Positions 1-56,635 are shown, numbered from the stretch's first letter. The stretch is DNA of 64,000 nucleotides from an uncultured Candidatus Saccharibacteria bacterium (GCA_964424265.1 CAYRHX010000004.1:4081-68080), one strand, 5' to 3'. Notes: generated by a model not told the origin, from the sequence alone. A program made the numbers and translations.

Positions 1-550
1 TGGTTGCGGTGGGCGCTTGTGTGATATCAGTCATCACCACTTCCTGACGGAAGGGATTGATGAATTTAGGGTACACCACAAATATTCTCGCATATCCGCT
101 GGCACGCGAGAATACTTTTTGTAATTCCTCTGCATGCGACGCGTCGTCATCGAACTCGATACACTCAATAATTTTTGACACCATACTCTCTCGCACGTAT
201 TGGGATCCCGTCAGGCCGATCATGAGAAAATCACTTTTCTTATTTGTTCCTGCGATAGTAACAAGCGCTCGTGCAACATCCCTGTTCAAAGTACCGTAAA
301 ATCGCTTGTTCGATGTAAGGCCGATGTAAATATCGCGTGCCTGTGCCGGCTGCTCTGACAAACGACTACCCTTCTCTTTATCTGCGAACGCATGCGCCTT
401 TACAATCCCATACACTTCGTTGATTCCCGAAAAGAAGCGGGCATTTTGTTCGAATCGCAAACGAAGTTCTTGCATTTTTCCGGAACTAATATTTTGCAGG
501 GTACCGGTAATAAGCGACGCGATTCGGTAATCCTCTACGAAATCCTGCAT
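1..550 (-). CDS. atpG: F0F1 ATP synthase gamma subunit, 5' portion (gene runs off window start)
   Basis: Minus-strand ATG at 548-550, 5 nt downstream of the atpA stop. Own translation MQDFVEDYRIASLITGTLQNISSGKMQELRLRF...IYIGLTSNKRFYGTLNRDVARAL fits the gamma N-terminal helix and the following segment. Operon position after atpA. Confidence 0.7.
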   Translation of the reverse strand, partial: MQDFVEDYRIASLITGTLQNISSGKMQELRLRFEQNARFFSGINEVYGIVKAHAFADKEKGSRLSEQPAQARDIYIGLTSNKRFYGTLNRDVARALVTIAGTNKKSDFLMIGLTGSQYVRESMVSKIIECIEFDDDASHAEELQKVFSRASGYARIFVVYPKFINPFRQEVVMTDITQAPTAT

Positions 551-555
551 TTCAG

Positions 556-2016
556 TTATGCGCGACATACGTCTTCAAATATCTCCTTTTTATCCTCAAG
601 GAGAGCCAAATATGTCTCGAGTGGCATGCCAGAGAGCGCACCGGCTCGCAAGTCCTGCAAATCAGACCTATTCTCGAGTGCGTTGAGTATTTTACGTCGT
701 TGCGCAACGAAGAAATCATTATCGCGTCCGTGCAAAAACGAAGTAAGTACGAGCGCAACGAACGGCACTTGGACGTCGACTGACACGGTCTCAGAAGGGT
801 CTTGCTGGAGAGCCTGTTCAAGGAGCTCACCAAAATGTAGGGCCGCACGTACTTCATCTTTGAGCTGCACACTGAAGTCGGCGTAATTTCGCTGCTGTCG
901 GTATCGACCCAGCAATTGTCGGACTCTCATCGAAAGTTGTTTTTGTGTCAGATTTTGGGTCTGACGTCCCATTCGCGTTACCGACCTCTCGATACTCACC
1001 GCTGGATATACACCTTCTCCCTGAAGCTCCGGCAAAAAAAGTAGGTGCCCATCGGTACACGACATGAGATTTGTAGGGATGATGCTCGAAAAGCTCTCTA
1101 TGTCGACGGCGACCACGGGAAACGTTGTAATGGAACCACCACCGGCACTCTCGACAAACGTCCCCGACCGCTCCATGAGATGCGCTTGCTGATAAAACAA
1201 ATCGCCTGGATACGATTCCCGACCTGGCAGGCGCTTCTCCAAGAGCGCAATCTCACGAAGATATTTCGCGTGTGCGTCGAGGTCGTCAAGTACCACGAGG
1301 ACGTCTTTTCCTTGCCGCTGAAAATATTCGGCAATCGTAAACGCGACTGAGGGGGCAATAGAAATACGCGGGGGCAACTCGCCCGAGAGAGCCGCAACTA
1401 TAATCGATCGAGTATGCCCTCCTGCCGAATCAAAAATTGCGCTGGAAACGCGGTTAAGCTCGCTTACCGATTTTCCGATAAGCACGTAGATGCTTATATG
1501 CCCCTCATCGCGCTGATGACGTACCACATTCGTGAGAAATGATGTCTTGCCCGCATGATCACCCCCGAAAATCAGCTGTCTCTGGCCTCTTGCAATCGGG
1601 AGCAGCGTGTCGACAAGCGTATATCCAGTATACAATTGGTACTTTGCCGATGTACGCATATCAATCCCTGGCGCATCAGTACCGAGCAGGAATGGCACAT
1701 TCCCGGGTGGAAATATCTTTGTCCTATCTACCGATTCCCCAAGGGCGTTTATCACGCAACCAAATAAATGCTCTCCAACAGAAAGCTGATACTTTTGCGC
1801 CAACATCGTATATCGTGCGCCCGTTCGTACGTCCACTGGGTCGAGCGCAAGTGCCACTAGATGGCTATCGGAAAGCGACTGAACTAGTGCGCGGTTCCCC
1901 TCTTCGTCCAGGATGACGTCGTTGATCCGCGCAGACGGAAGTCCTTCAACAAAGAAGACATAGCTTTTTGCTTGCGTAACAAATCCTATCTCGCGAATTG
2001 GCTCTTTTTCATTCAT
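556..2016 (-). CDS. atpA: F0F1 ATP synthase alpha subunit
   Basis: 486 aa. P-loop region GGDHAGKTS. Alpha-specific block IYVLIGKSVSELNRV...PGRESYPGDLFYQQAHLMERSG closely parallels canonical alpha ([21 protein letters not shown]). Confidence 0.9.
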   Translation of the reverse strand: MNEKEPIREIGFVTQAKSYVFFVEGLPSARINDVILDEEGNRALVQSLSDSHLVALALDPVDVRTGARYTMLAQKYQLSVGEHLFGCVINALGESVDRTKIFPPGNVPFLLGTDAPGIDMRTSAKYQLYTGYTLVDTLLPIARGQRQLIFGGDHAGKTSFLTNVVRHQRDEGHISIYVLIGKSVSELNRVSSAIFDSAGGHTRSIIVAALSGELPPRISIAPSVAFTIAEYFQRQGKDVLVVLDDLDAHAKYLREIALLEKRLPGRESYPGDLFYQQAHLMERSGTFVESAGGGSITTFPVVAVDIESFSSIIPTNLMSCTDGHLLFLPELQGEGVYPAVSIERSVTRMGRQTQNLTQKQLSMRVRQLLGRYRQQRNYADFSVQLKDEVRAALHFGELLEQALQQDPSETVSVDVQVPFVALVLTSFLHGRDNDFFVAQRRKILNALENRSDLQDLRAGALSGMPLETYLALLEDKKEIFEDVCRA

Positions 2017-2530
2017 ATGCGCGTACCAGTTTTAAGATTTCAGCTCTTTGTTTCTTCAAAAAATATGTCAACGAAACATCGTGATACACGTTATCGTATG
2101 CGAAGGCGCATCCACCAACCACCCGAGGATCAATGTGCAGATCTAATATCAAGGTTGGTTTGATGTTTGTGCGACACCAGGTACTAATACGCTCAATCTG
2201 TATCCGAGAAAGATGCGCGGGAACATACAAAATTAGTGTGGGACATGCGCGAATTGTCTGCTTGAACTCTGAGACGCGCTCGTAGAGATTGCTGGCAGTA
2301 TATGTATCAAGCACATCTGTGCCCCATGCGGCAACGGCGTTTGCATGCGTCAGTGTCTCGGGATCACCGTCCCGATAATATGTGCGCAGCAACTGCGCGC
2401 GATCACCTTCAAGAGAAGTCGCTTCGAAAAAGAAGTGCTCGAAAAATCTCTGCATAATATCGACACGTCGAAAGAAATCCCCTAAAGAGAAAGTGTTTTT
2501 GAGGACTGCCGCCGGTATTGTGTCAGCCAT
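2009..2530 (-). CDS. atpH: F0F1 ATP synthase delta (OSCP) subunit
   Basis: 173 aa, between atpF and atpA. 8-nt overlap with atpA start. Size and helical composition typical of delta/OSCP. Confidence 0.7.
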   Translation of the reverse strand: MADTIPAAVLKNTFSLGDFFRRVDIMQRFFEHFFFEATSLEGDRAQLLRTYYRDGDPETLTHANAVAAWGTDVLDTYTASNLYERVSEFKQTIRACPTLILYVPAHLSRIQIERISTWCRTNIKPTLILDLHIDPRVVGGCAFAYDNVYHDVSLTYFLKKQRAEILKLVRAYE

Positions 2531-2537
2531 ACAAGAT

Positions 2538-3320
2538 TTAAAGCATACCCGCAGAGCGTGCCTCTTTGAGTGCGTCTTCTACGAGCTCCGTGTGATCATC
2601 CGACGTCAACGCTTTGCGTAAGACCACCTTCGATGTCTCGGCAATCAGATCTACCATATGTTCGTCGACGAGCCGCTTTCTGCTATTTCGATATGCTTCT
2701 ATGTCGCTCTCTAGTATCTTAAGAAGCATCTCCACACGCTCATCGATGCGACGCTTAGATTCACTGGAAACACCTTCGAGAGTACGGCTGAAACCTTCCG
2801 CAGCGCCGTGATGAGCCTCTTCGATCGTCTTGCTTATCGTATTTGTTTGCGCCTCGATGCTTTTCGAGAGATTCTTCAGATCCTCTTGAATCTGTTCCAG
2901 ACTTGCTTTAATAGTCGCGCTTTGTCCCGATATGGCAGACGAGAATTGCCCGGCAACCTCCATTTGTCCGGTGCGAACTTTCTCAGATCCCTCTTCGATT
3001 GACAGACGAGCGTTCACTACAAGCGTGTCAAGTGCCTCCCGGTATGCATTGGTATGCGCGTCGATATCGACCCGCTGCTTGTCGAGAAGCGTCGATGCCG
3101 CCATCTCGGCGTCAGCAATCATCTTCCGCGCCATTTCTCGCGCCTGACTGATTATGTGATCGGCATCGGATTGAGATTTTGATTGCGCGTATTCGTAAAT
3201 CGGATACGTGAGACGTTGTACTCGCAAACCCGTAAGAACCTGCAGTACCAAGAGCACGACAAGTCCAATAACGAGACCGATGGTTATGAGCGCAAACATT
3301 TCTGAAGATACGGTGAGCAT
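2538..3320 (-). CDS. atpF: F0F1 ATP synthase subunit b (long form)
   Basis: 260 aa. Single N-terminal TM helix (FALITIGLVIGLVVLLVLQVL) followed by a long charged coiled-coil region. Operon position upstream of atpH. Confidence 0.7.
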   Translation of the reverse strand: MLTVSSEMFALITIGLVIGLVVLLVLQVLTGLRVQRLTYPIYEYAQSKSQSDADHIISQAREMARKMIADAEMAASTLLDKQRVDIDAHTNAYREALDTLVVNARLSIEEGSEKVRTGQMEVAGQFSSAISGQSATIKASLEQIQEDLKNLSKSIEAQTNTISKTIEEAHHGAAEGFSRTLEGVSSESKRRIDERVEMLLKILESDIEAYRNSRKRLVDEHMVDLIAETSKVVLRKALTSDDHTELVEDALKEARSAGML

Positions 3321-3373: not shown

Positions 3374-4888
3374 TTATGCAAAGAGAATATACAAGGCTGC
3401 CAGCAATCCCAAGCTTGCGACCGCAACAGCCAGTATCGCATTAAAGAGCACTAGAGAGCGTATAGAACTTCTCGCACTCGGATTCCTTCCTATGGAAATC
3501 ACTCCATAGTTCGCGTCAGACATAAAACTCTTAAAGGCGAACGTGAGAGAGAGGATCGCTATAATTCCAGCAAGTAGATACCTGGAAATTCCAAAGACGA
3601 CCTCTGGATTGATTATACCCAACAAACGGCATGACAACGAAATACATTTAGGAGCGGATGCATTCACGTTCTCACCGACCGCAGCAATATTAACCAGGAT
3701 TGTTCCCGAGGGAATCTGTTTGCCATCGGGCCCTGCAAGTAATACGTTATTTTCTCCATTGAAATCTTCGGTAGCCACTGCAAATACGTTTTCGCCAGGA
3801 TTCGCGCGACGAGCCTTACCGGGGATTGAAGAAGACGTTAACGAATCGCCTTGGAAAACAGGCCCATTTTCCATAGTCACGTTCACCAACATTGAACCCG
3901 ATCGGGCTACGGGGACGTGCACCCCAGCCTCATCCGACGCAAATAAGATAGAAGGATCCTTGACGACCACGCCATATACACCAGGGTCGTTAGAGGTTTG
4001 TGTCTGCACAAATGAACTCGTTATCGGATCGAATGCAACAATATCACCGTAGGCAACGCGCGAACCACTGAATGGAACCTCTGTAGCGGTCAACCCAGGC
4101 AGTTGGATCAGAGCAGCTTGATTCGACGGACTTTCCGCCGCTAACACTCCTGCGGCAGCAGCCTGACTTGTTCGGATATTCTTTTGTGCGGCAACAGATG
4201 TATCTGACGTCGACGGGACGAAGTCCGAGTCGTGGCTCACCGCTGCCATATCTCCTCCGACATATGTGGCAAAAGATGTTGATGCGTATCGTTGTAAATA
4301 ATTCCACGAAAGCCGTACAGTATCCGTATAAGAAACTAAAAACCCTGAAAAAACCATGAAAACGACGACGACTGTCAACGATCGGCCCCAAAAATAAGCG
4401 CGTCGTACTCCCGCCGTAGTGCCTAAAAAACGCGCGCGATGCGTGCTCCTCCTGGATTCATTGACCGCGTAGGAGACTTGACCTTTATCCACGGCAGTTC
4501 GATCTGCGGCTGCGTCCACCATGAGCTCACGAACTTTTTCGAAACCTTCAGTCGGATTGTAGTAGCTAATACTCTGCGCAGGTAGAATCGAGCCCGGCAT
4601 AACAGAAGCTTCAGCAGCCTGATCAGCGGAAGGTACTTTTTTCAGGATGTACTCACGCCGCCTTATCTCCGCCAAGGATTTGTACCGTAGGCGCTCATAC
4701 TCGCGTTGTTGGGACAAGTAATTGCGAAGCTCCTCAGGCTCAACATACCAATTCTTGCCCACTCGACGACCGTGAACTTTATTTTCGCGACAAAGACGAG
4801 CGGCATAATCCTGTGTGATACCCTCTTTCAAAGAAGCTTCACTCGTTGTGATGTAGATCACCCCATCCAAAATTATGTCATCGCTCAT
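3374..4888 (-). CDS. Membrane protein with N-terminal HTH_17 (excisionase/MerR-like) domain, TM helix, extracytoplasmic domain and C-terminal two-helix hairpin
   Basis: 504 aa. N-term MSDDIILDGVIYITTSEASLKEGITQDYAARLCRENKVHGRRVGKNWYV is a paralog of the repeats in the 5377-6309 protein. TM at RSLTVVVVFMVFSGFLVSY. C-terminal hairpin ...GVISIGRNPSARSSIRSLVLFNAILAVAVASLGLLAALYILFA. Confidence 0.6.
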   Translation of the reverse strand: MSDDIILDGVIYITTSEASLKEGITQDYAARLCRENKVHGRRVGKNWYVEPEELRNYLSQQREYERLRYKSLAEIRRREYILKKVPSADQAAEASVMPGSILPAQSISYYNPTEGFEKVRELMVDAAADRTAVDKGQVSYAVNESRRSTHRARFLGTTAGVRRAYFWGRSLTVVVVFMVFSGFLVSYTDTVRLSWNYLQRYASTSFATYVGGDMAAVSHDSDFVPSTSDTSVAAQKNIRTSQAAAAGVLAAESPSNQAALIQLPGLTATEVPFSGSRVAYGDIVAFDPITSSFVQTQTSNDPGVYGVVVKDPSILFASDEAGVHVPVARSGSMLVNVTMENGPVFQGDSLTSSSIPGKARRANPGENVFAVATEDFNGENNVLLAGPDGKQIPSGTILVNIAAVGENVNASAPKCISLSCRLLGIINPEVVFGISRYLLAGIIAILSLTFAFKSFMSDANYGVISIGRNPSARSSIRSLVLFNAILAVAVASLGLLAALYILFA

Positions 4889-5376
4889 GTAAGTAAAGAT
4901 CCGATTTAACTATCATTTTACTAGATATTCCGGATATTTTCTGCAAAAGGAAAACAAGCAGTTGTGGATAAGAAGACACCTATCTCTGCACGATCTAATT
5001 AGCCCCTCAATGTGTTCCCCGCCTCATGAATGCGGCCTTAATTTAGCTCAAACATGGCCCGTACGTAATCAGTGAAGAGGTGTTCGATAAGAACATGTCA
5101 CTAATTCATCACGTACAGCACGCGCATAGCGTGTAATGTAGGACGAACAGCCTGGTTCATTCTTCCTTTATTGGCCTCCCTCCCCGCATCTTCGATCAAT
5201 TTTGTATTACTGAACACGCGGAGCATCCCGATAATACGGCCAGGTTTGACCCGAATTGTGTACTACGTATGTTGATCTCGATTATACGAGATACGCATCA
5301 TGGGCATATCTCGGCTGGTTTATTCCTGTCGTTCGTCTCCTTAACCACGCAACATCGGCATTAAGCGTTGCCCTAG

Positions 5377-6309
5377 CTATGGGCGTATATAGTGGAGCGT
5401 CGGCACAATTATGTCCTCCACGACATCGCCTACCGATGAAAGCACTGCACCAATGCTTTGTGCAAAATCCAGGCCGATAGAGCCATCTTGTGTACCGCTA
5501 CGCAATACTGCCCAAGTACCAATTAGTGAAACGGCCAGTACAGCGCCGAGTATGGTTACGAATTTAGATGTGATCCATCGAGGAAATGCTGGGCTACTGT
5601 GCGGGTGTCTGGGACTTTCCCACGCTGCATTCCTTAAATCGCCGCGTATAGCAACATTTCGCACTCGTATAGGAATTGGTTGATCTGCACTCTCTTCTAC
5701 ATTCTGTCTTTTTTGCGTACTCGAATCTTCCAGGGCCCGGACGGGTATTTCAGGGTGCAGCATTCCTTCCTCGTTTGTATAGGTAAAGTAGCTTGTGGGA
5801 CTTTCGTCTGCTTCAATCAACTGCTTGGCACTTGTCCCGCGATCTATGCCCACCGATGAAGCCTGCACGGCACCTAAGAGGCGATCTTTTTCTGCCTTGT
5901 GAGTCATGATTGATTCGCGCCCTACATACCAACGACTCCCTACCTGACGTGCGGATACGGCTCCAGATCGAGCAAGCTGCCCAACATAATCCTGATGATA
6001 GCCAGTCAGATTTGCCGCACGCGAGGCAGGCACGTAATCAACTCCATCGAACGAGACTAGAGACTCCGCTTCAGCAGGTTGAATTCGTTGATGAAGTTGT
6101 ACAGATTGCTGGCTTTTTGAGATCTCAGCCGCCTTTTCGTGTTCCTGAATTGAGGCTAGAGATACGTGCCAAAGGCCCCCGATTCGACGCGCGTCGATGT
6201 ATCCTCCTCGCGCAAGCTGACCAATGTAATCCTGAGCATAACCACTCAATTCCGAAGCTCGCTTGGACGAGATGTACGTCTTCCCATCTATATGTATCTC
6301 GTCTGACAT
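5377..6309 (-). CDS. Tandem HTH_17-domain protein with C-terminal TM anchor
   Basis: 310 aa. Two internal repeats: IHIDGKTYISSKRASELSGYAQDYIGQLARGGYIDARRIGGLWHVSLASI and VSFDGVDYVPASRAANLTGYHQDYVGQLARSGAVSARQVGSRWYVGRESI. TM FVTILGAVLAVSLIGTWAVL near C-terminus. Same MSD(D/E)I start as the adjacent 504-aa gene. Confidence 0.6.
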   Translation of the reverse strand: MSDEIHIDGKTYISSKRASELSGYAQDYIGQLARGGYIDARRIGGLWHVSLASIQEHEKAAEISKSQQSVQLHQRIQPAEAESLVSFDGVDYVPASRAANLTGYHQDYVGQLARSGAVSARQVGSRWYVGRESIMTHKAEKDRLLGAVQASSVGIDRGTSAKQLIEADESPTSYFTYTNEEGMLHPEIPVRALEDSSTQKRQNVEESADQPIPIRVRNVAIRGDLRNAAWESPRHPHSSPAFPRWITSKFVTILGAVLAVSLIGTWAVLRSGTQDGSIGLDFAQSIGAVLSSVGDVVEDIIVPTLHYIRP

Positions 6310-6375: not shown

Positions 6376-7812
6376 CTACACCAAGTCGATCATTTGCAGT
6401 AAAAGCGCTTTGACCGATGAGGGGTCGGCAGTCCCCTTACTCGTCTTCATGGCTTTTCCTATAAGAAACTGGAGAGCCGGCGCCTTGCCCGATCTGTAAT
6501 CCGATACAACGGAGGCATTTTCTAAAAGGATGACCTCTATTAAGGTCTTTAGATCGTCTGGTGAACCCGATTGTAAGAGATTTTTATCATTGGCCAACAT
6601 CTCAGGGTCCTTCTTTGTTTTGAAACACTGGATGAGTAATTGCTTAGCAACGCTTGAAGACACTTTTCTGGTAGCAAGCATATCTATGATGGTATTGAAA
6701 TTGCGTGCCGAGATGGCTATCTCGGCATTACTTTCTGTATCTGGTTTCTCGGTATCTCGGATCAGCGCAACTAGATCGTTTGCTACGTAGTTACTTGCCA
6801 AAATAACCCAATCCCGATCCTCTACATGGTTAGCTATGACTGTTTCGAAAAAGTCACCGAGATCTTTGCTACGAACGAAACTCTCGGCGTCCTGGTATTT
6901 GATACCAATGTCCAAATAACGCCGCCTCCGCTCAAAGGGTAACTCTGGCATGTCCTTGGCCAAACTGCTCGGTAGGTACTCTTTGATTTCCGAGAGCCTG
7001 AGACTTGGCAAATCGGGATCTGGGAAGTAGCGATAATCGGCACTCCCCTCCTTTGCGCGTTGTGAAAATGTCGATTGCTTCCCCTCATCCCACCCACGAG
7101 TTTCTTGCACGACTACCTCGCCCCTTTCGAGGATCGACGCCTGACGCTTGATTTCGAATTCAATAGCGCGTTCCATCGCGCGAAAAGAATTTAGATTTTT
7201 TACCTCGACCTTCGTGCCACGCACGTTATTTTTACTTATTGAGATATTTGCTTCTACACGCATCTCTCCTTTCTCCATATTTGCATCACTTGCGCATAGA
7301 TATTTCAAAAGCAACTGAAGCTCACGGGCAAAATCTCCCGCTTGTTTTGAGCTCGTGATAATAGGCTCTGTCACTAATTCCATGAGAGGGACCCCGGAGC
7401 GATTGTAATCGATAACCGTCCCGACCCCCTCTTCATGTGATGAGCTTGCGGTATCCTCTTCAAGGTGCACACGCGTCACCGCCACTCCGTGCAATTCTCC
7501 ACCTGAAACGAGTGGGTACTCATATTGACTCAACTGATACCCTTTCGGCTGGTCGGGGTAAAAGTAATTTTTTCGATCAAATTCTGTGTAGTCTGCAAGC
7601 GTACCCCGCAAAGCGAGACCGACACGCAAGACATGCCTTACAGCCTCCCTATTGATAACGGGGAGTGTTCCTGGGTGCGCAAGACAAACCGGACAAACAT
7701 TGGTATTTGCTTCCGCGCTATATGCATCATTTCTTGAGTGGCAAAACATCTTTGTAGTCGTTCTTAACTCAGCATGAATCTCAAGGCCAATGGTTGGCAC
7801 GTACTCACTCAT
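6376..7812 (-). CDS. gatB: Asp-tRNA(Asn)/Glu-tRNA(Gln) amidotransferase subunit B
   Basis: 478 aa. N-term MSEYVPTIGLEIHAEL...KMFC...NTNVCPVCLAHPGTLPV is the GatB signature. Confidence 0.85.
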   Translation of the reverse strand: MSEYVPTIGLEIHAELRTTTKMFCHSRNDAYSAEANTNVCPVCLAHPGTLPVINREAVRHVLRVGLALRGTLADYTEFDRKNYFYPDQPKGYQLSQYEYPLVSGGELHGVAVTRVHLEEDTASSSHEEGVGTVIDYNRSGVPLMELVTEPIITSSKQAGDFARELQLLLKYLCASDANMEKGEMRVEANISISKNNVRGTKVEVKNLNSFRAMERAIEFEIKRQASILERGEVVVQETRGWDEGKQSTFSQRAKEGSADYRYFPDPDLPSLRLSEIKEYLPSSLAKDMPELPFERRRRYLDIGIKYQDAESFVRSKDLGDFFETVIANHVEDRDWVILASNYVANDLVALIRDTEKPDTESNAEIAISARNFNTIIDMLATRKVSSSVAKQLLIQCFKTKKDPEMLANDKNLLQSGSPDDLKTLIEVILLENASVVSDYRSGKAPALQFLIGKAMKTSKGTADPSSVKALLLQMIDLV

Positions 7813-7858: not shown

Positions 7859-10381
7859 CTACTCAACTACCTTCCAAACGCCGCCAGCCAACAGCGGTTC
7901 AGCTTTTTTAAATTTCATCTCTTTAGTGTCCGTTCCGTTTGTAATGGTGACCCTATCATTTCTTCCGTATTCCTTCTTTGGGGAGCCTCCCGAAACTGCC
8001 GATATTGCCGAGACTGCCCGTTGGACAGCTATTTGGGCTCCGCTCGCCGAAGCGCCATCGCCGAGAAGCCGCGGGAGCACGTTTGCTACCTGTGTCGCAA
8101 AAGAATCCTCCATCGTTTGGAAGAGTCTCAACCCCTCTTTCTTGTATTCGACAAGTGGGTCCCGCTGACCGTACGCGCGCAAATTTACGGAATTGCGCAA
8201 GTATTCCATAGCCTCCAAGTGTTCAACCCAAAGAAAGTCGATGGTCTGCAAGAGAAATCGACGAGATGCGGTATAGAAAGATCTACCCAGCTCTTTCTTC
8301 TTATTCTCAATAATGTCAACTAGTGCACTATTGCGTTCGGAGACACGTGCGAGCTCTTCATCTATGGCCACACTTTCCCCCGTGAGAAGTCCGCGCCGTC
8401 TTCCGTACACACTTTGCCGCTGAATATTCAGAATATCGTCGTATGCGAGGACGTGCTTGCGCGCATCAAAATTCAACTCCTCGATTCGAGTTTGAGCCTT
8501 TTCTAGAGCCCGCGTAATCATCGAGTTGTGGATCGGCTCGTCTTCCGGAATCTTGAAAGTCCCCATGACTCGCTTGATGATGTCGGAGGCAAAAACACGC
8601 ATAAGTGAATCTTCGAGAGAGACAAAAAACTGCGTCTCGCCGGGATCCCCCTGTCTTCCAGAGCGTCCACGCAGCTGATTATCGATCCGTCGCGCCTCGT
8701 GTCGTTCTGTCCCCAAGACAAAGAGACCTCCGACCTTTTTGATCTCCTCATATAATTCTGGACTACCTGGATTGCCCCCTAGTTTTATATCTACCCCGCG
8801 ACCGGCCATGTTCGTCGCGATCACGACGGCACCCCGTTTCCCTGCTTGCGCTATGATCTCTCCTTCGCGTTCGTGATTCTTGGCGTTCAAGATCTCATGT
8901 GGAATTCCCTCTTGTTTGAAATAGACTGAGAGCAATTCATTTTTCTCTACTGATACAGTACCCACAAGCACGGGCTGGCCTTTTTCATGAAGTCCAGCAA
9001 CATGACGAGCAATAGCCTTCATCTTTCCAGCTTCTGTCTGAAAGATGAGGTCGTCGTGATCTTTCCGCTGCGCTTGCTTGTTGGTCGGTACAACAACCGT
9101 ATTCAGTCCGTATACCTTATAGAACTCTTCAGACGAGGTAGCCGCCGTTCCTGTCATGCCAGCAAGCTTGCCGTACAGGCGAAAATAATTCTGGAAAGTG
9201 ATCGAAGCAAATGTGCGTGACTCTTGCTGGATCTCTACACCCTCCTTCGCTTCTATCGCCTGGTGGAGACCTTCACTCCAGCGCCGCCCTGGCTGCAAAC
9301 GGCCCGTCGATTCATCGACGATAACAATCTGCCCATCCTTCACAACGTACTCCTTGTCTCGGCCAAAAAGCGCCCGAGCACGAACGGCAGTCTCCAGATG
9401 ATGAACGTATTTAATACCCGCGTCGGTATAGATATTTTCAACACCGAGGATTCTTTCTGCCTTCTCGATGCCACTATCAGTGAGTACGATCTGCTTATGC
9501 TTATGCTCCACGGTATAGTCTTCATCTTCGACAAATCCAGCGGCTATCGACGCGAAACGACCGTAGAGCGACTCCGCGTCCGAAACGGGAGCAGAGATGA
9601 TAAGGGGCGTACGCGCCTCGTCTATAAGAATGGAGTCGATCTCGTCTACAATGGCAAAATTGTATCCTCCATTTTGAGGAAGCCGCTGACGGAGCAATGA
9701 CACATCGTACTCAAGGTTGTCGCGCAAATAGTCGAAACCAAATTCGTTGTTGGTGCCATAGGTAATATCGGCGGCATACGCTTCACGACGGGTGCAAGGA
9801 CGCAAAAAATCGTACATAACCTTAAAGCTACCGAGATTGTCACGGTCCTCATCCTCCTTCGCCAAAGCTTCGGACGACAGGTGTGAAGGATCGTAGAGAT
9901 ACGACGACTCATGATTGATAACGCCGACAGAAAGGCCGAGCGCGTGATAAATCTGCCCCATCCATACCGCATCGCGGCGAGATAGGTAGTCGTTGACAGT
10001 TACGATGTGAACACCCTTTCCACTCAACCCATTAAGATACGCGGGCAGTGTCGCTACCAGGGTCTTTCCCTCCCCCGTGCGCATCTCGGCAATATCGCCA
10101 CGATGCAAAATCATACCTCCCAACAGCTGGACATCGAAATGACGCTGGCGGAGCGTGCGTCGGCTTGCTTCGCGGACTACCGCGAAGGCTTCTGGGGCGA
10201 TATCCTCAAGGGAATCTCCTGAGAGAAGCCGGCGTTTGAATTCTTCAGTCTTTGATTTGAGCGCTTCATCTGAGAGCGCTTGTATTGCACTTTCATGTGC
10301 GTTCGTCGCCGTGATAATAGGCTCTGCAGCACGCAGCGCCGAGAGATTCTCATCCCCTAAGAGTCGCTTCCAGAAAGCCAT
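7859..10381 (-). CDS. secA: Preprotein translocase ATPase SecA
   Basis: 840 aa. GEGKTLVATLPAYLNGLSGKGVHIVTVNDYLSRRDAVWMGQIY DEAD-like motor region and full-length SecA architecture. Confidence 0.95.
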   Translation of the reverse strand: MAFWKRLLGDENLSALRAAEPIITATNAHESAIQALSDEALKSKTEEFKRRLLSGDSLEDIAPEAFAVVREASRRTLRQRHFDVQLLGGMILHRGDIAEMRTGEGKTLVATLPAYLNGLSGKGVHIVTVNDYLSRRDAVWMGQIYHALGLSVGVINHESSYLYDPSHLSSEALAKEDEDRDNLGSFKVMYDFLRPCTRREAYAADITYGTNNEFGFDYLRDNLEYDVSLLRQRLPQNGGYNFAIVDEIDSILIDEARTPLIISAPVSDAESLYGRFASIAAGFVEDEDYTVEHKHKQIVLTDSGIEKAERILGVENIYTDAGIKYVHHLETAVRARALFGRDKEYVVKDGQIVIVDESTGRLQPGRRWSEGLHQAIEAKEGVEIQQESRTFASITFQNYFRLYGKLAGMTGTAATSSEEFYKVYGLNTVVVPTNKQAQRKDHDDLIFQTEAGKMKAIARHVAGLHEKGQPVLVGTVSVEKNELLSVYFKQEGIPHEILNAKNHEREGEIIAQAGKRGAVVIATNMAGRGVDIKLGGNPGSPELYEEIKKVGGLFVLGTERHEARRIDNQLRGRSGRQGDPGETQFFVSLEDSLMRVFASDIIKRVMGTFKIPEDEPIHNSMITRALEKAQTRIEELNFDARKHVLAYDDILNIQRQSVYGRRRGLLTGESVAIDEELARVSERNSALVDIIENKKKELGRSFYTASRRFLLQTIDFLWVEHLEAMEYLRNSVNLRAYGQRDPLVEYKKEGLRLFQTMEDSFATQVANVLPRLLGDGASASGAQIAVQRAVSAISAVSGGSPKKEYGRNDRVTITNGTDTKEMKFKKAEPLLAGGVWKVVE

Positions 10382-11022: not shown

Positions 11023-13410
11023 TTACAACTTCACGGTACCCGCTTTCACTTGCTGAATGAGGTCTGAGGCTTGCACAGCAGCTTCGGGAGAAATTTTGGA
11101 AGCAGCCTCAAGCGTCGAGATAGATTTAGCAATATTTCCCATTCCATAATACGCCGCCGCTAAAGTGAAATACCCCTGTGGATCGTTTGGTTGCGCTTTC
11201 ACGCGCCCCTCCCAGACGAGCGCAATCTTCGCATACTGCTTACCCGCCAGGTATGCTGATGTGATTCGTGGATCGGCAGCTTCGCCCGTCGCGATGATTG
11301 GCGCGAGGATGTCGTCGGCCAGCGCTCCGTTACCTGTCTGAATGAGGAGAGCTGCATACAAAATTCGTGCCTGAACATTCGAGGGCTCAAGCTCGTACGC
11401 AGTCTTCAGCGCATTCAATGCCTCGTTTACATCACCGCGAGCCTGTGCATTGAGAGCGATCTCAAAAAGGATCGTCTGTTTTTTTGGTGAATTGGCATGT
11501 GCGGCTTGCAATGCCTCCGCCCCCGCGGCGTAGTTTCCAAATGAATTGTAGACGATTCCCAGAAAGAGAGGGAAGCGTGCATCGAGGGGCGACTCGGTCT
11601 GCTGCAGCTTCATCTCTGAAACAGCGGTGTCGTAGAATGCCTGTTTTTGCGCCCGATCTATTTCTGCCATGCTCGCGATACGTGATGCTATTTGCGACAA
11701 CTGTTCACGCGCTTCTTGAGTGCCGAAAGCACCGACCGCAATTGCCGCTTTTATCATTTCCAAATTTTTGGCAACACCCCCTTGCTGTGGAATGATCGCC
11801 TGTATGAGTAATTTGTTTTGTGCAATCGCTCCCACGTTTACCCAATATAAAGCCCCACACACAACGGCCGTTGCTATACACACCACAATCCAGCCAGCCT
11901 TTCTGTTGAGATCTTTTTTCCAGAGTGGGGGCTCACCTGCTGCGGCGGCGCTGCGCCATGCAATGTACCCAAGGATGGTGCCAAACAAAATGTAGCTGGT
12001 AACATTGTCAAAAACAAAGAAATTATGTACGAAGTATCCTGCCAATAAGCCCGTCAAAATACTCGCCTCAACCCTTGAGAATGCCTTGCTCCACAGTGCC
12101 CAAAGCGCAGCCATAAAAATTGCGAGATAACTCAAAAGCCCTACAAAGCCGCCTGCAATAAGCCAATCGAAAATAATGTTGTGCACGCGGTCAAACCACG
12201 GCTCTTGCGCGTACATGCGTGGATCGTAATATTTATCAAACACCAAGGCGAAATTCTCCTGCCCCCATCCCAATACAGGGCGCTCTTTCACGCCTTCCCA
12301 TGCGATAGACCAATTTATGAGACGTGATTTTGAGGTACTCTCTGAAAGCGAGATCGTCGCGAGCCTGCTCAGAAACCCTATACTATTCAACCCTTGTGTA
12401 TTTCGTAACGCCAAGAAACCCCCGAAGGCGATGACAACGAAAGCGAGGTACCCTGCCGCAACGCGCCACGTTGTCGAAGATGCCCGCACGCCCCCAGTCG
12501 GGCGTTCAAAAAACGTGATGAGAAGCGCGGCAAGGACCGATCCACCAAATAGGCCGAGAATCGTTCCACGTGTACTTGTCTGCAATAACGCGACGGCATC
12601 AAGCATCAAAATCAGGGTAAGAACATGCGCTTGTCTCAGGAACATCAACGACATCACGATGACGTCAAGCGTCATGAGGCCCACGTACAGTGGCCACCCT
12701 GCCCCTGCCTCCTTGAAAATGCTCGCAAAAATACCTGAGACGACGATCAGAAATAAGGCTACCGCGATACGCTCTACCGAATTCCATTCTTTCTTATTTG
12801 ATTGATAAATAAGGAGCACCGCTATGAAAACATGAAAAAGCATGAAGGCAGCGAGGTAAATTGGATTGCCGAATGTACTATCGATGCGAGCCGAAAGACC
12901 TGCAGCAACGTTGTTGCCAGTCGCGACAATTCCAATCGTCTGTAACAACCCGTATATTGATATGCAGGAGGATAATGCTAAGAGGACTTGTAAGAATCGT
13001 CGCCAAAGTACCTCGCTTGTGATCATAGATGACACTACAAAGAGATACGCGAGGACGTGAGCGAGAGTCACCCACCCATCCATGCGTTCGTAGTTACTCC
13101 AAAGACTCTTAAAAGGATACGCCCCGAGTGTATCGGCAAGTCCAATGATGAGGACGAAAACGGTGAAAGCAGTGAGTACCCACGATCGACGGGGTCGGTA
13201 TGCGGAATTTAGTAAGGCGAGTGCAATCCAAGCACCCGCCATCATTTCCACAATAATTCGAAACGCGAAATTCTTACCCGTGATATACGGGAAGAAGAGA
13301 GTCCCATCGACAATGAACGGAACGAGCGCAAGGGAAAATATTGTCCCGAGGACGAAAAAACGAAGCGTCTTTTCTAGTATCATGCGCGGCATTCTACCAT
13401 ACAGCCCCAC
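11023..13410 (-). CDS. O-antigen ligase/polymerase-like (Wzy_C family) polytopic membrane protein with C-terminal TPR repeats
   Basis: 795 aa. About 12 TM helices. Wzy_C-like motif RIDSTFGNPIYLAAFM. C-terminal about 250 aa alanine-rich TPR-like repeats. Confidence 0.7.
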   Translation of the reverse strand: MGLYGRMPRMILEKTLRFFVLGTIFSLALVPFIVDGTLFFPYITGKNFAFRIIVEMMAGAWIALALLNSAYRPRRSWVLTAFTVFVLIIGLADTLGAYPFKSLWSNYERMDGWVTLAHVLAYLFVVSSMITSEVLWRRFLQVLLALSSCISIYGLLQTIGIVATGNNVAAGLSARIDSTFGNPIYLAAFMLFHVFIAVLLIYQSNKKEWNSVERIAVALFLIVVSGIFASIFKEAGAGWPLYVGLMTLDVIVMSLMFLRQAHVLTLILMLDAVALLQTSTRGTILGLFGGSVLAALLITFFERPTGGVRASSTTWRVAAGYLAFVVIAFGGFLALRNTQGLNSIGFLSRLATISLSESTSKSRLINWSIAWEGVKERPVLGWGQENFALVFDKYYDPRMYAQEPWFDRVHNIIFDWLIAGGFVGLLSYLAIFMAALWALWSKAFSRVEASILTGLLAGYFVHNFFVFDNVTSYILFGTILGYIAWRSAAAAGEPPLWKKDLNRKAGWIVVCIATAVVCGALYWVNVGAIAQNKLLIQAIIPQQGGVAKNLEMIKAAIAVGAFGTQEAREQLSQIASRIASMAEIDRAQKQAFYDTAVSEMKLQQTESPLDARFPLFLGIVYNSFGNYAAGAEALQAAHANSPKKQTILFEIALNAQARGDVNEALNALKTAYELEPSNVQARILYAALLIQTGNGALADDILAPIIATGEAADPRITSAYLAGKQYAKIALVWEGRVKAQPNDPQGYFTLAAAYYGMGNIAKSISTLEAASKISPEAAVQASDLIQQVKAGTVKL

Positions 13411-30614: not shown

Positions 30615-30645
30615 AAACGACTCTTCCGGTACTCGAAACAAACGC

Positions 30646-55193: not shown

Positions 55194-55197
55194 AGCT

Positions 55198-56430: not shown

Positions 56431-56635
56431 GTCGGTGAGCGCTTTCGGCGTATGTCTCTCCAGTTCTTGAGGCAGCTGACTGTCCGCTGCCTCGTCTGCG
56501 CACCACGATCCCCAACGCCACTACCAAAATCCCTGCAATCAAGAAAAGCACGGTATCCCAGCTCTGTGGAAATCCCAAAAACGGCAACGTAGCCACAAAC
56601 GCCCCCAACGTCATAAGAAGTGTGTCGACTGTCAT
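56411..56635 (-). CDS. Small two-TM membrane protein
   Basis: 74 aa. LLMTLGAFVATLPFLGF and VLFLIAGILVVALGIVV. Start overlaps RT stop region. Confidence 0.4.
   Translation of the reverse strand: MTVDTLLMTLGAFVATLPFLGFPQSWDTVLFLIAGILVVALGIVVRRRGSGQSAASRTGETYAESAHRHEELAQ

What the first reader, a model, noticed from the sequence alone, without database searches (positions are those of the whole stretch)
3374..6309. ATP synthase cluster lacks adjacent a/c subunit genes, which are replaced by two paralogous HTH_17-repeat membrane proteins. C-terminus of one resembles a carboxylate-less c-subunit hairpin.
On the minus strand the order is [5377-6309] [3374-4888] atpF atpH atpA atpG. No atpB/atpE homologs occupy the expected positions upstream of atpF. 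Instead there are two genes that both start MSD(D/E)I and carry copies (three in total) of an approximately 50-aa excisionase/MerR-like HTH_17 domain (DGxxYIxxxxASxxxGxxQDYIxxLxRxGxIxxRRxGxxWxV), followed by TM segments. The 504-aa protein ends, 54 nt before atpF, in a two-helix hairpin. Its loop/helix-2 (IGRNPSARSSIRSLVLFNAILAVAVASLGLLAALYILFA) aligns without gaps to the c-subunit ARQP...LY..FA segment, but the ion-binding Asp/Glu is replaced by Val. Either the F0 proton path is encoded elsewhere or is degenerate, or this is coincidental hydrophobic similarity. DNA-binding HTH domains in membrane proteins with large extracytoplasmic parts are also unusual.
Basis: partly seen in the sequence, partly recalled or inferred. 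Interest (0 to 1): 0.6.

Follow-up and report, generated by a model that had tools for sequence, protein, structure and literature searches.

The report
Ion-blind rotor in ATP synthase operon
In this small-genome (CPR/Patescibacteria) bacterium, the slot that normally holds the proton-carrying rotor subunit of ATP synthase holds a relative that has lost its proton-binding residue and carries a large domain outside the cell; thousands of related bacteria share this design, which points to an ATP-driven surface machine rather than an ordinary ATP synthase.

Summary
On the minus strand the order is gatB, a 310-aa gene, a 504-aa gene, then divergent b, delta, alpha and gamma. No a or c subunit gene lies anywhere in the 64-kb window.

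The last 77 residues of the 504-aa protein are homologous to F-type subunit c. With a profile of 70 hairpins, all 24 PDB hits were c subunits (best E 7.6e-6). hhalign gave 93.5% probability. The loop Arg-Asn-Pro is invariant. The ion-binding Asp/Glu position is never acidic in 142 relatives.

The core module (secreted beta domain with a phage capsid-decoration fold plus the c-like hairpin, about 270 aa) is a Patescibacteria-wide family with 11,261 cluster representatives. In 72 of 75 informative genomes it sits directly upstream of b-like, delta-like, alpha, gamma, beta and epsilon genes. No a subunit lies within 10 kb.

The HTH_17 domains are real at fold level. They are a lineage-specific N-terminal HTH+TM anchor, shared with giant surface proteins encoded after epsilon.

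Most likely this is an F-type-derived ATPase with an ion-blind rotor ring that displays domains on the cell surface. Whether canonical a/c genes exist elsewhere in the genome could not be tested.

The parts
5377..6309 (-). 310-aa membrane protein: two tandem excisionase-type HTH domains, a linker, one TM helix and a short conserved extracellular tail (GDVxE...TYxR).
   Evidence: ORF. Pfam HTH_17 E 1e-4 and NCBIfam excise E 6e-4, both below threshold. Conserved in the same position in L001-L007 and in other Paceibacteria-type loci.
6136..6297 (-). HTH repeat 1 of the 310-aa protein (aa 5-58).
   Evidence: Internal repeat, 46% identity, E 1e-17. Invariant YxQDYIGQLAR...GGLW motif.
5890..6057 (-). 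HTH repeat 2 of the 310-aa protein (aa 85-140).
5500..5559 (-). Single TM helix of the 310-aa protein (aa ~251-270).
   Evidence: Hydropathy scan.
4889..5376 (.). 488-bp non-coding spacer between the two genes. Relatives have 136-200 bp here.
   Evidence: No Rfam hit. No consensus promoter or terminator on the minus strand.
3374..4888 (-). 504-aa fusion protein: cytoplasmic HTH, signal-anchor TM, disordered linker, extracellular beta domain and a c-subunit-like hairpin.
   Evidence: ORF. 17 homologs. AF2 models. Conserved synteny.
4718..4876 (-). HTH_17-like domain of the 504-aa protein (aa 5-57).
   Evidence: Pfam HTH_17 E 1e-3. pLDDT ~97 and Foldseek matches to Xis, BldC, RacA and TraN. Paralogous to the 310-aa repeats.
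4313..4381 (-). TM1, an N-in signal anchor preceded by an Arg-rich segment (aa ~170-192).
   Evidence: Hydropathy scan. AF2 helix 143-210.
3674..4087 (-). Extracellular beta domain with the phage capsid decoration/cement protein fold (aa ~268-405).
3377..3607 (-). C-terminal two-helix hairpin homologous to F-type ATP synthase subunit c (aa 428-504).
   Evidence: Profile against PDB: all 24 hits are c subunits, best E 7.6e-6. hhalign probability 93.5%, E 2.4e-7. Reciprocal phmmer. AF2 helices separated by a loop at GRN.
3479..3487 (-). Loop Arg468-Asn469-Pro470, the counterpart of the RQP/RNP loop of c subunits.
   Evidence: Invariant in 17 + 125 family members.
3425..3427 (-). Val488, at the position of the ion-binding Asp/Glu of c subunits (+20 from the loop Arg).
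   Evidence: Alignments. The position is L/I/V/A/T/G/F/S/M in 142 of 142 sequences, never D/E.
3440..3442 (-). Asn483, a conserved membrane-embedded Asn (+15).
   Evidence: N in 128 of 142 sequences; H/S/D/E/Q/Y in the rest. Its role is unexplained.
2538..3320 (-). b-like peripheral-stalk subunit (260 aa: N-terminal TM plus a long coiled coil).
   Evidence: Architecture and position. NCBIfam F0F1 subunit B E 0.004, far below the cutoff. No Pfam hit.
2009..2530 (-). delta/OSCP-like subunit (173 aa).
   Evidence: C-terminal IDPxxVGGxxFxYxNxxHDxS motif. NCBIfam F0F1 delta E 0.009. PDB OSCP 6yny_G1 E 0.85. Position between b and alpha.
556..2016 (-). F1 alpha-like subunit (486 aa, Walker A GGDHAGKT).
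   Evidence: Pfam ATP-synt_ab E 8e-57. PDB F1 alpha E 4e-66. NCBIfam 334 bits against a cutoff of 554.
1..568 (-). N-terminal ~189 aa of the F1 gamma subunit. The gene runs off the window start; beta, epsilon and a giant HTH-anchored surface protein follow off-window.
   Evidence: ORF 2-574. In the identical locus L088 the gene carries PF00231 and is followed by beta and epsilon.

Best explanation
The region encodes the membrane sector of a divergent, Patescibacteria-specific derivative of the F-type rotary ATPase.

SHOWN:
1. Gene 3374-4888 ends in a hairpin homologous to subunit c. It has the same out-in-out topology and an invariant R-N-P cytoplasmic loop. It has no ion-binding carboxylate.
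2. The hairpin is preceded by an extracellular beta domain with a phage capsid-decoration fold.
3. This two-part module is a very large family. It occupies the atpE slot directly upstream of b-like, delta-like, alpha, gamma, beta and epsilon genes across Microgenomates, Parcubacteria/Paceibacteria and some Saccharimonadales contigs.
4. No a subunit is encoded in the window or within 10 kb of the module in 87 loci.
5. The F1 subunits keep their catalytic motifs, yet all score below NCBI's equivalog cutoffs.
6. In this lineage an excisionase-type HTH plus TM anchor has been added to the front of the c-like protein. The same anchor forms the 310-aa protein upstream and heads the giant surface protein downstream of epsilon.

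INFERRED:
- The c-like hairpins assemble into a ring that the gamma-epsilon foot grips through the RNP loops.
- ATP hydrolysis in alpha3beta3 turns or strains this ring against the b/delta stalk.
- With no carboxylate and no a subunit, no ions are moved.
- The output is mechanical or structural work on the crown of beta domains outside the cell. This is probably linked to the neighbouring giant surface proteins, some of which carry the same beta domain.
- The 310-aa protein is an accessory membrane anchor or stator partner, or a tethered regulator, not a substitute for subunit a.
For: Homology to subunit c:
- A profile of 17 hairpins against PDB gave 12 hits, 11 of them c subunits. The best was A. 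woodii c2, E 1.8e-4.
- A profile of 70 diverse hairpins gave 24 of 24 hits as c subunits. The best E was 7.6e-6, and the alignment spans both helices.
- hhalign against 7 c subunits gave probability 93.5% and E 2.4e-7 over 71 columns.
- Canonical c subunits used as queries picked the family genes out of 10,077 ORFs.
- RNP is invariant, and position +20 is never acidic in 142 sequences.

Topology:
- Short family members have AxA-type signal peptides.
- The window protein has an Arg-rich N-in anchor.

Family size: 11,261 representatives at E<=1e-3 and 3,123 at E<=1e-10.

Synteny:
- Six loci of Kaiserbacteria type and closely related loci.
- 72 of 75 informative genome loci have alpha downstream on the same strand.

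No a subunit in cis. The precomputed Pfam lists for neighbouring genes never show PF00119 or PF00137. A canonical CPR a subunit is easily seen by Pfam (E 8e-45 in Southlakia; PMC10633639 supplement).

Catalytic competence: beta has GGAGVGKT and GERTREG; alpha has the SVTRMG Arg.

Divergence: alpha, beta, gamma and epsilon score at 40-92% of the NCBIfam cutoffs.

Signs of an independent machine:
- Two paralogous complete operons occur in one Gottesmanbacteria MAG.
- One published Saccharibacteria genome has 2x alpha/beta/gamma/epsilon but 1x a/c/b/delta (PMC10656485 Suppl. Data 4).

Link to surface proteins:
- Giant proteins of 1,100-5,347 aa with the same HTH+TM head follow epsilon.
- Giant proteins with the same beta domain lie upstream in several Microgenomates loci.
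Against: - No structure or stoichiometry of a ring was obtained. Only single-chain AF2 models were made, and the hairpin pLDDT is 70-83.
- Helix 1 lacks the GxGxGxG packing motif of c subunits.
- Each subunit carries a 150-aa domain on the inner-helix end (plus, in this window, an extra TM and a cytoplasmic HTH). Fitting these into a closed ring is untested, and rotating cytoplasmic HTH domains would collide with the b stalk.
- Retention of a b/delta stator without a membrane stator partner is unexplained.
- Absence of a and c elsewhere in the genome was not tested. COG-based tables report a and c in many CPR genomes, including a Kaiserbacterium with a single F1 set. That table may, however, count the c-like protein as c, since JGI names P0024 'subunit c'.
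- There are no expression or biochemical data.
Confidence: 0.5

Rival explanations
1. Ordinary ion-coupled ATP synthase with a split gene set. Canonical a and c (and perhaps b) are encoded elsewhere in the genome. The F1 of this operon docks on that Fo. The beta-domain/c-like protein is then an accessory: a minority member of a mixed c-ring, a ring cap, or an assembly/anchoring factor.
For: - COG table of PMC10656485: most CPR genomes with F1 also score a, c and b. Kaiserbacteria RIFOXYB1_FULL_46_14 has single alpha/beta/gamma/epsilon plus a, c and b but no delta.
- The operon keeps delta- and b-like stator subunits, which make most sense with a membrane stator.
- There is a precedent for a carboxylate-less hairpin inside a working ring: the A. 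woodii c1 subunit, PDB 4bem, which was itself among the hits (the ring composition is from my own knowledge).
Against: - No a or canonical c lies within 10 kb in any of 87 loci or in the 64-kb window. Yet the c-like gene keeps the exact atpE position.
- All F1 subunits fall below the equivalog cutoffs.
- Two full paralogous operons occur in one MAG.
- One genome has two F1 sets and one Fo set.
- The COG 'c' calls may be this very protein.
- A ring cap or minority subunit would not need its own dedicated b, delta, alpha, gamma, beta and epsilon.
Confidence: 0.2
2. A non-rotary use of the F1-like ATPase. The c-like ring or oligomer is a static membrane dock. The ATPase powers export, insertion or tensioning of the adjacent giant HTH-anchored surface proteins, in the way FliI/FliJ-type relatives energise type III export.
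For: - Giant surface-protein genes directly follow epsilon in Paceibacteria-type loci and share the HTH+TM head with the 310-aa and 504-aa proteins.
- F1 alpha and beta are homologous to T3SS/flagellar export ATPases (one search lists them as weaker hits).
- The lack of an a subunit removes the usual torque partner.
Against: - Full gamma, epsilon, delta-like and b-like subunits are conserved. These are the parts needed specifically for rotary coupling, and export ATPases lack them.
- The RNP loop that couples the ring to gamma/epsilon is invariant.
- Many Microgenomates loci have the operon without an adjacent giant gene.
Confidence: 0.15
3. A decaying relic. The cluster is a degenerating ATP synthase in a reduced genome, and the c-like hairpin is a non-functional remnant fused by accident to a surface protein.
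For: - CPR genomes are reduced, and many lack ATP synthase altogether (PMC10656485, PMC11738941).
- The F1 subunits are divergent.
Against: - The fusion family has over 11,000 cluster representatives, with invariant RNP and strongly conserved hairpin and beta-domain residues.
- ORFs are intact and catalytic motifs are preserved.
- The gene order is conserved across classes.
Confidence: 0.03
4. Chance or convergent resemblance. The C-terminus is just a two-helix membrane anchor (or a VirB2/TrbC-type pilin-like hairpin) of a surface protein that happens to sit next to ATPase genes.
For: - Single-sequence Pfam scans give no ATP-synt_C hit.
- Structure searches return only generic hairpins.
- T4SS pilins of Saccharibacteria are structurally c-subunit-like (PMC10633639 supplement).
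Against: - Profile searches hit only c subunits and no pilins.
- hhalign gives 93.5% probability.
- The match includes the diagnostic loop xIExIGRNPxA, compared with xVEGIARQPEA in c subunits.
- The gene is in the atpE slot in 72 of 75 loci.
Confidence: 0.02

Closest known systems
F-type ATP synthase subunit c (AtpE; Pfam ATP-synt_C, COG0636)
   Same: Two-helix hairpin with an out-in-out topology. Cytoplasmic R-(Q/N)-P loop preceded by an xVE/IExI motif. Similar helix lengths. Gene immediately upstream of b, delta, alpha, gamma, beta and epsilon. Profile-level sequence homology.
   Different: No Asp/Glu in helix 2 (L/I/V/A instead). A conserved Asn five residues earlier. No GxGxGxG in helix 1. 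Not a free 70-90-aa protein but the C-terminus of a secreted ~240-aa (here 504-aa) protein with a large extracellular domain. No a subunit next to it.
Heteromeric or duplicated proteolipid rings with carboxylate-less hairpins (A. woodii c1 in PDB 4bem; V/A-type K/c subunits). ProAD also lists 20 F/N-type 'non-catalytic' c subunits (PMC11738941).
   Same: c-type hairpins that have lost the ion-binding residue yet remain in a rotary ATPase context.
   Different: In those systems other hairpins in the same ring keep the carboxylate, and an a/I subunit is present (my own knowledge for A. woodii). Here no family member of 142 has the carboxylate, and no a subunit is in cis.
Mycoplasma F1-like ATPases: Type 2 (M. 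mobile gliding motor G1-ATPase, MMOB1660/1670; PDB 9io5) and Type 3 (MSC_0618/0619)
   Same: Divergent alpha/beta(/gamma) paralogs of F1, taken out of ion-coupled ATP synthesis and embedded in clusters with lineage-specific membrane or surface proteins. The window alpha scores 272 bits on the MMOB1660 model, against 274 on atpA.
   Different: Scores are far below those families' cutoffs (600 and 850 bits), so this is not a member. The mycoplasma clusters lack recognisable c-, b- and delta-like genes (my own knowledge). The CPR operon keeps all of them in the canonical order.
Phage capsid decoration/cement proteins (Sf11 gp40, phi29 head-fibre gp8.5 base, HFTV1, TW1, Pam3 gp6, XM1 gp53; Pfam PF23982, PF22758)
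   Different: Sequence identity is 13-18%. The domain is fused to a membrane hairpin in a cellular operon, not part of a capsid. The same domain also occurs in giant CPR surface proteins.
Excisionase/MerR-type HTH_17 domains (Xis, BldC, RacA, TraN) and membrane-tethered HTH regulators (ToxR/CadC type)
   Same: Fold of the three ~50-aa repeats. N-terminal cytoplasmic HTH followed by one TM and an outside part, as in ToxR-like proteins (my own knowledge).
   Different: All scores are below the curated thresholds. ToxR/CadC use an OmpR-type winged helix, not the excisionase type. Here the HTH+TM module heads structural surface proteins of up to 5,347 aa, which suggests an anchoring or docking role. 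DNA binding is untested.
N-ATPase (alternate F1Fo, atpDCQRBEFAG)
   Same: A second, divergent F-type operon that can coexist with the housekeeping one.
   Different: NCBIfam alt_F1F0 alpha scores 275 against a cutoff of 750, and beta 391 against 752. N-ATPases keep a, a carboxylate-bearing c, AtpQ and AtpR, lack delta, and have a different gene order (my own knowledge).

Membership tests
F-type ATP synthase subunit c (ATP-synt_C) | Two transmembrane helices joined by a short cytoplasmic loop, with N and C termini outside. | tested here: met
   AF2 helices 166-204 and 208-241 of the C-terminal construct. Hydropathy. Signal peptides or an N-in anchor upstream place the hairpin N-terminus outside.
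F-type ATP synthase subunit c (ATP-synt_C) | Conserved polar loop R-Q/N-P. | tested here: met
   RNP is invariant in 142 sequences.
F-type ATP synthase subunit c (ATP-synt_C) | Significant sequence/profile similarity to known c subunits. | tested here: met
   Profile against PDB E 7.6e-6, with 24 of 24 hits c subunits. hhalign 93.5%. Single-sequence Pfam scans do not reach ATP-synt_C, so the relation is remote.
F-type ATP synthase subunit c (ATP-synt_C) | Essential ion-binding Asp/Glu in the middle of helix 2. | tested here: not met
   Val488 in the window. L/I/V/A/T/G/F/S/M in 142 of 142 family members.
F-type ATP synthase subunit c (ATP-synt_C) | Gly-rich GxGxGxG packing motif in helix 1. 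| tested here: not met
   Helix 1 consensus is RYxxAAxxAxxSxxxAF. It is rich in small residues but has no GxGxG.
F-type ATP synthase subunit c (ATP-synt_C) | Assembles into a homo-oligomeric ring contacted by gamma/epsilon. | not testable with these tools
   Only single-chain structure prediction was available.
F1Fo ATP synthase (complete complex) | alpha, beta, gamma and epsilon with catalytic motifs. | tested here: met
   All are below the NCBIfam equivalog cutoffs (alpha 334/554, beta 427/463, gamma 79/194, epsilon 42/67).
F1Fo ATP synthase (complete complex) | Peripheral stalk subunits b and delta. | tested here: inconclusive
   Position and architecture fit. Profile support is weak: b E 0.004; delta E 0.009 and 0.85, with the DPxxxGG...D.S motif.
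F1Fo ATP synthase (complete complex) | Subunit a with the conserved Arg, adjacent to c. | tested here: not met
   Absent from the 64-kb window and from +/-10 kb in 87 loci. Presence elsewhere in the genome is not testable here.
HTH_17 / excisionase-type DNA-binding domain | Profile match above the curated threshold. | tested here: not met
   Pfam 19.8 and 22.8 bits against a cutoff of 27. NCBIfam excise 20.1 against 28.8. The homologous head of the giant protein in L092 reaches 26.3 bits, E 9e-6.
HTH_17 / excisionase-type DNA-binding domain | Winged-helix fold of the Xis/MerR N-terminal type. | tested here: met
   AF2 pLDDT ~97. Foldseek to Xis 4j2n, BldC 6ama/6amk, RacA 5i44, TraN 4pm3 and RdfS 8dgl, with TM(target) 0.5-0.73 and probability 0.85-0.99.
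HTH_17 / excisionase-type DNA-binding domain | Binds DNA. | not testable with these tools
The membrane-tethered context leaves the role open.
Mycoplasma F1-like ATPases (MMOB1660/1670, MSC_0618/0619) | alpha/beta score above the family cutoffs. | tested here: not met
   272 against 600, 353 against 850, 187 against 520 and 329 against 570 bits.
N-ATPase (alternate F1Fo) | alt_F1F0 alpha/beta models above cutoff, and an atpQ/atpR-a-c gene set. | tested here: not met
   275 against 750 and 391 against 752 bits. No a, Q or R genes. A delta-like gene is present.
Phage capsid decoration protein (XM1_gp53_minor_capsid PF23982) | Profile match above threshold / shared fold. | tested here: inconclusive

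The most novel reading that the evidence does not exclude
Patescibacteria have turned the F-type rotary ATPase inside out. It would be an ATP-powered motor whose rotor ring carries no ions. Instead it projects a crown of phage-decoration-like domains through the membrane and turns or tensions extracellular structures, namely the giant surface proteins encoded beside it. That would give bacteria without a respiratory chain or reliable proton-motive force an ATP-driven engine for surface movement, attachment or host interaction. It would be a third functional class of F-type machinery, after ion-coupled synthases/pumps and the mycoplasma gliding motor.
Probability: 0.25. Interest if true: 0.95.

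Novelty: new variant of a known kind. Interest (0 to 1): 0.8.

Why it matters
1. Metabolic reconstructions of CPR bacteria routinely score 'F-type ATPase present' from alpha, beta, gamma and epsilon hits. They then infer proton-motive-force coupling. JGI even labels one family member 'subunit c'. If this operon has no ion path, those inferences are wrong for a sizeable part of the radiation.

2. A c-type ring with no carboxylate and no a subunit, but with conserved F1, gamma/epsilon, b and delta, would be a natural experiment. It asks what a rotary ATPase does when torque is not spent on ions.

3. The extracellular domain on every rotor subunit, and the link to giant surface proteins, offer a concrete and testable lead on how episymbiotic ultra-small bacteria power their surface. 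A DCCD-insensitive ATPase, cryo-ET of CPR envelopes and multimer modelling could each test it.

4. The recurrent 'cytoplasmic excisionase-type HTH + TM' head on CPR surface proteins is an unexplained architecture in its own right.

Tried and rejected
- Single-sequence Pfam scans of the full protein and of four isolated hairpins gave no ATP-synt_C hit. Profiles were needed.
- The search for subunit a found nothing.
- The 74-aa two-TM ORF at 56411-56635 was checked as a possible stray c subunit. It has no Pfam hit and no RQP/RNP loop.
- The search for related loci with the 125-sequence alignment failed because no stretch was conserved enough. A 16-sequence subset worked.
- Genome-wide presence of atpB/atpE could not be tested. 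The COG table of PMC10656485 was read instead, but it is ambiguous because COG0636 can call the c-like protein itself.
- Rfam and tRNA scans of the window, and a sensitive Rfam scan of the 488-bp spacer, gave nothing.
- Ten literature searches found no description of this family or operon variant. Subscription journals are not covered, so prior description cannot be excluded.
- A VirB2/TrbC pilin origin was considered because such pilins look c-like structurally. It was rejected because profile searches hit only c subunits.
- N-ATPase membership and mycoplasma F1-like membership were rejected on NCBIfam scores.

Full report
**What is in the window.**

The window has about 50% G+C with genes mostly on the minus strand. 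The closest protein relatives are named Candidatus Kaiserbacteria or Paceibacterota, so it comes from a Patescibacteria (CPR) genome. Read on the minus strand, the region contains:
- secA (7859-10381) and gatB (6376-7812).
- A 310-aa gene (5377-6309), then a 488-bp spacer.
- A 504-aa gene (3374-4888), then a 53-nt gap.
- A 260-aa gene (2538-3320) and a 173-aa gene (2009-2530).
- F1 alpha (556-2016) and the start of gamma, which runs off the window.

In identical or near-identical contigs the cluster continues with gamma, beta, epsilon and a very large gene.

**Check of the observation.**

- The two focal proteins both begin MSD(D/E)I.
- The 310-aa protein contains two copies, and the 504-aa protein one copy, of a ~50-aa domain. 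Pairwise E values are 1e-17, 2e-10 and 8e-10.
- Pfam HTH_17 matches at E 1e-4 and 1e-3, and NCBIfam 'excise' at E 6e-4. All are below the curated thresholds.
- The AF2 model of this domain is very confident (pLDDT ~97). It superposes on Xis, BldC, RacA, TraN and RdfS. The fold assignment therefore holds, though strict family membership does not.
- Hydropathy gives one TM helix in the 310-aa protein and three in the 504-aa protein.
- No a-subunit-like or further c-like sequence exists in any frame of the 64-kb window.

**The hairpin is a c-subunit relative.**

Single-sequence Pfam scans see nothing, but profiles do.
- A profile of the 17 closest hairpins, searched against all PDB sequences, returned 12 hits at E<=10. 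Eleven are ATP synthase c subunits, and the best is A. woodii c2 at E 1.8e-4.
- A profile of 70 diverse hairpins returned 24 hits at E<=1, all c subunits. The best E is 7.6e-6, and the alignment now covers both helices.
- In the reverse direction, spinach, I. tartaricus and PS3 c subunits picked the family genes out of 10,077 ORFs from all fetched loci. The best E was 5e-4.
- The match includes the diagnostic loop: family G-I-E-A-I-G-R-N-P-L-A, c subunits A-V-E-G-I-A-R-Q-P-E-A. Mitochondrial c subunits also have R-N-P (my own knowledge).
- R-N-P is invariant in 142 sequences.
- The position of the essential Asp/Glu (+20 from the Arg; Val488 here) is L/I/V/A/T/G/F/S/M and never acidic.
- A membrane-embedded Asn at +15 (Asn483) is present in 128 of 142 sequences.
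- Helix 1 is rich in small residues but lacks GxGxGxG.

**The scale of the family, which changes the interpretation.**

An exhaustive HMM search used the beta-domain-plus-hairpin part. It found 11,261 cluster representatives at E<=1e-3, 3,123 at E<=1e-10 and 220 at E<=1e-30.

Most are proteins of about 270 aa. They have an N-terminal signal peptide with an AxA-Q type cleavage site, the beta domain, a linker and the hairpin. The mature protein therefore has its N-terminal domain outside the cell and enters the membrane with the same out-in-out topology as subunit c.

The window's 504-aa protein is a lineage-specific elaboration. The signal peptide is replaced by a cytoplasmic HTH, a long helix and an Arg-flanked N-in anchor. 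A close relative (P0015, 318 aa, same synteny) lacks this addition.

**The beta domain.**

Foldseek and weak Pfam hits agree. The same domain recurs in giant CPR surface proteins, including genes directly upstream of the operon in several Microgenomates loci and a 1,543-aa protein with three copies.

**Synteny.**

- In six loci of Kaiserbacteria type and closely related loci the order is fixed: gatB, HTH-TM protein, c-like protein, 260-aa, 173-aa, alpha, gamma, beta, epsilon, giant protein.
- A scan of one genome per GTDB species with a loop pattern confirmed 234 loci, of which 80 were fetched. They come from Gottesman-, Davies-, Chisholm-, Levy-, Roizman-, Woese-, Woyke-, Ames- and Blackburnbacteria, Paceibacterota, Kaiserbacteria and Saccharimonadales. 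Some carry obviously wrong TPA labels.
- In 72 of the 75 loci with enough flank, alpha lies within 6 kb downstream on the same strand. The b-like and delta-like genes lie between, and gamma, beta and epsilon follow.
- An iPGM gene is sometimes inserted between the c-like and b-like genes.
- No canonical c, no a, and no recurrent multi-TM family occur in any of the 87 loci. PF00119 and PF00137 never appear in the precomputed Pfam lists of the neighbours.
- By contrast, the a subunit of a canonical CPR operon (Southlakia) is detected by Pfam at E 8e-45 (PMC10633639 supplement). The absence is therefore not a sensitivity problem.

**The rest of the ATPase.**

- Alpha (E 4e-66 to Bacillus F1 alpha) and beta (E 3e-114) are clearly F-type and keep the Walker A, catalytic Glu and Arg-finger motifs.
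- All four F1 subunits nevertheless fall below NCBI's equivalog cutoffs: alpha 334/554, beta 427/463, gamma 79/194, epsilon 42/67. Alpha scores as well on the mycoplasma gliding-motor model as on atpA.
- The 260-aa protein has the b architecture (one N-terminal TM plus a coiled coil) but is ~100 aa longer than usual. It hits F0F1 subunit B at E 0.004.
- The 173-aa protein ends in the delta/OSCP signature (IDPxxVGG...HDxS). It hits F0F1 delta at E 0.009 and OSCP at E 0.85.
- Both names are therefore plausible but rest mainly on position and architecture.

**Is it an independent machine?**

Three observations point that way:
- One Gottesmanbacteria MAG carries two complete paralogous copies of the operon (c-like 51%, alpha 54%, beta 65% identity).
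- In the COG table of Mahendrarajah et al. 2023, one Saccharibacteria genome has two each of alpha, beta, gamma and epsilon but one each of a, c, b and delta. This is what a canonical operon plus this variant would give. That reading is an inference; I did not see that genome.
- Saccharibacteria are reported to hold complete canonical clusters, while Saccharimonadales contigs also carry the variant.

Against this, the same table lists a, c and b in most CPR genomes with a single F1 set, including one Kaiserbacterium. JGI annotates a family member as 'subunit c' by COG0636, so the 'c' column may partly be this protein. The 'a' column cannot be explained that way. Whether this window's genome has atpB/atpE elsewhere remains open.

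**The HTH+TM module.**

The same N-terminal head (M-[ST]-[DN]-x-I-x-[IF]-[DE]-G...Y, then the HTH, then a TM helix) starts three kinds of protein:
- The 310-aa protein.
- The 504-aa protein.
- The giant proteins directly after epsilon: 2,171 aa in L002 and 5,347 aa in L092, where Pfam HTH_17 reaches E 9e-6.

MerR/excisionase-like HTH heads were also seen at the start of giant proteins upstream of the operon in L059 and L087.

The 310-aa protein additionally has a short, conserved extracellular tail (invariant D295, V296, E298, Y307, R309).

I read this module as a cytoplasmic docking or anchoring device shared by the proteins that work with the ATPase. A membrane-tethered regulator or a DNA-tethering role cannot be excluded.

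**Most likely mechanism.**

Shown:
- A c-derived, carboxylate-less hairpin with an extracellular domain sits in the atpE slot of a conserved, divergent F-type operon.
- That operon has no a subunit in cis.

Inferred:
- The hairpins form a ring gripped by gamma/epsilon through the invariant RNP loops.
- ATP hydrolysis drives or strains the ring against the b/delta stalk.
- No ions are translocated.
- The work is delivered to the crown of decoration-like domains outside the cell and, through them, to surface structures such as the neighbouring giant proteins.

This would suit organisms without a respiratory chain.

Weak points:
- Ring geometry with bulky N-terminal domains is untested.
- In this lineage the extra TM and the cytoplasmic HTH would clash with the stalk if the ring rotated.
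- There is no obvious membrane stator partner.

I put 0.5 on this package. I put about 0.9 on its 'shown' core alone.

**Rivals.**

- (i) A and c are encoded elsewhere and this is an ordinary enzyme with an accessory c-like protein (0.2).
- (ii) A non-rotary docked ATPase energises export or tensioning of the giant proteins (0.15).
- (iii) A decaying relic (0.03).
- (iv) Chance resemblance or a pilin-like anchor (0.02).

**Comparison with known systems and novelty.**

It works most like an F-type ATPase and is derived from one. It fails two defining features of the ion-coupled enzyme: the carboxylate, and an a subunit in cis.
- It is not an N-ATPase and not a member of the mycoplasma F1-like families, although conceptually it parallels the latter.
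- Carboxylate-less hairpins are known only as minority parts of otherwise functional rings.
- ProAD notes 20 'non-catalytic' F/N-type c subunits without further description.
- I found no paper describing this family, its extracellular domain or the operon variant. The searchable library excludes most subscription journals.

I class it as a new variant of a known kind, with high interest.

Noticed in passing
window 56632-57666 (-), with 56411-56635 (-) and 55198-56430 (-): A reverse transcriptase gene (Pfam RVT_1, E 3e-25) sits next to a 74-aa two-TM ORF and a DUF4015 glycosyl-hydrolase gene. It could be a retron, DGR or group II intron RT.
   Followed up: no
window 4889-5376: A 488-bp non-coding spacer lies between the 310-aa and 504-aa genes. 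Relatives have 136-200 bp here. There is no Rfam hit, no ORF and no consensus promoter or terminator on the coding strand.
   Followed up: partly
L002 17514-21665; L092 14495-18753; L001, L004, L006, L025, L026, L032, L038, L044 downstream of epsilon: Giant genes (products of 1,100 to 5,347 aa) directly follow epsilon. They begin with the same HTH_17-like domain plus TM helix as the two focal proteins. In this window the gene would lie beyond the left end.
   Followed up: partly
L011 and L018 (both Gottesmanbacteria GW2011_GWA2_43_14, contigs LCFP01000017 and LCFP01000013): One MAG holds two paralogous complete copies of the variant operon (c-like 51%, b-like 32%, delta-like 37%, alpha 54%, gamma 43%, beta 65% identity). 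Contamination of the bin by a second species is not excluded.
   Followed up: partly
L071 10639-12408; L087 10691-12388: A 2,3-bisphosphoglycerate-independent phosphoglycerate mutase-like gene is inserted between the c-like and b-like genes in two loci. The identity was judged by eye from the sequence and was not profile-tested.
   Followed up: no
window 3440-3442 (Asn483) and family-wide position +15: A membrane-embedded Asn lies five residues before the lost carboxylate position. It is N in 128 of 142 sequences and occasionally H, S, D, E, Q or Y. Its function is unknown.
   Followed up: partly
window 556-2016 (alpha N-terminus): The alpha subunit aligns from residue 7 to residue 25 of Bacillus alpha. 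The N-terminal tail that binds delta/OSCP in canonical enzymes (my own knowledge) therefore appears to be missing. Other loci have different N-terminal extensions.
   Followed up: no
window 3629-3646 (Cys415...Cys420) in the 504-aa protein: A nearly invariant Cys pair (C-x4-C) lies in the extracellular linker between the beta domain and the hairpin in the Kaiserbacteria-type proteins. It may form a disulfide.
   Followed up: no
P0024, P0021, P0012 (database names): Public annotation of the family is inconsistent. [quoted passage not shown]
   Followed up: yes
window 11023-13410 (-), 29358-32529 (+), 37600-39306 (-), 50964-51944 (-), 53631-55454 (-): The rest of the window is rich in cell-envelope genes: Wzy_C O-antigen-ligase-like with TPR repeats, a Polysacc_synt flippase, GtrA/PMT_2 glycosyltransferases, a lamin-tail-domain protein, and a YkuD L,D-transpeptidase fused to Peptidase_S11.
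   Followed up: no
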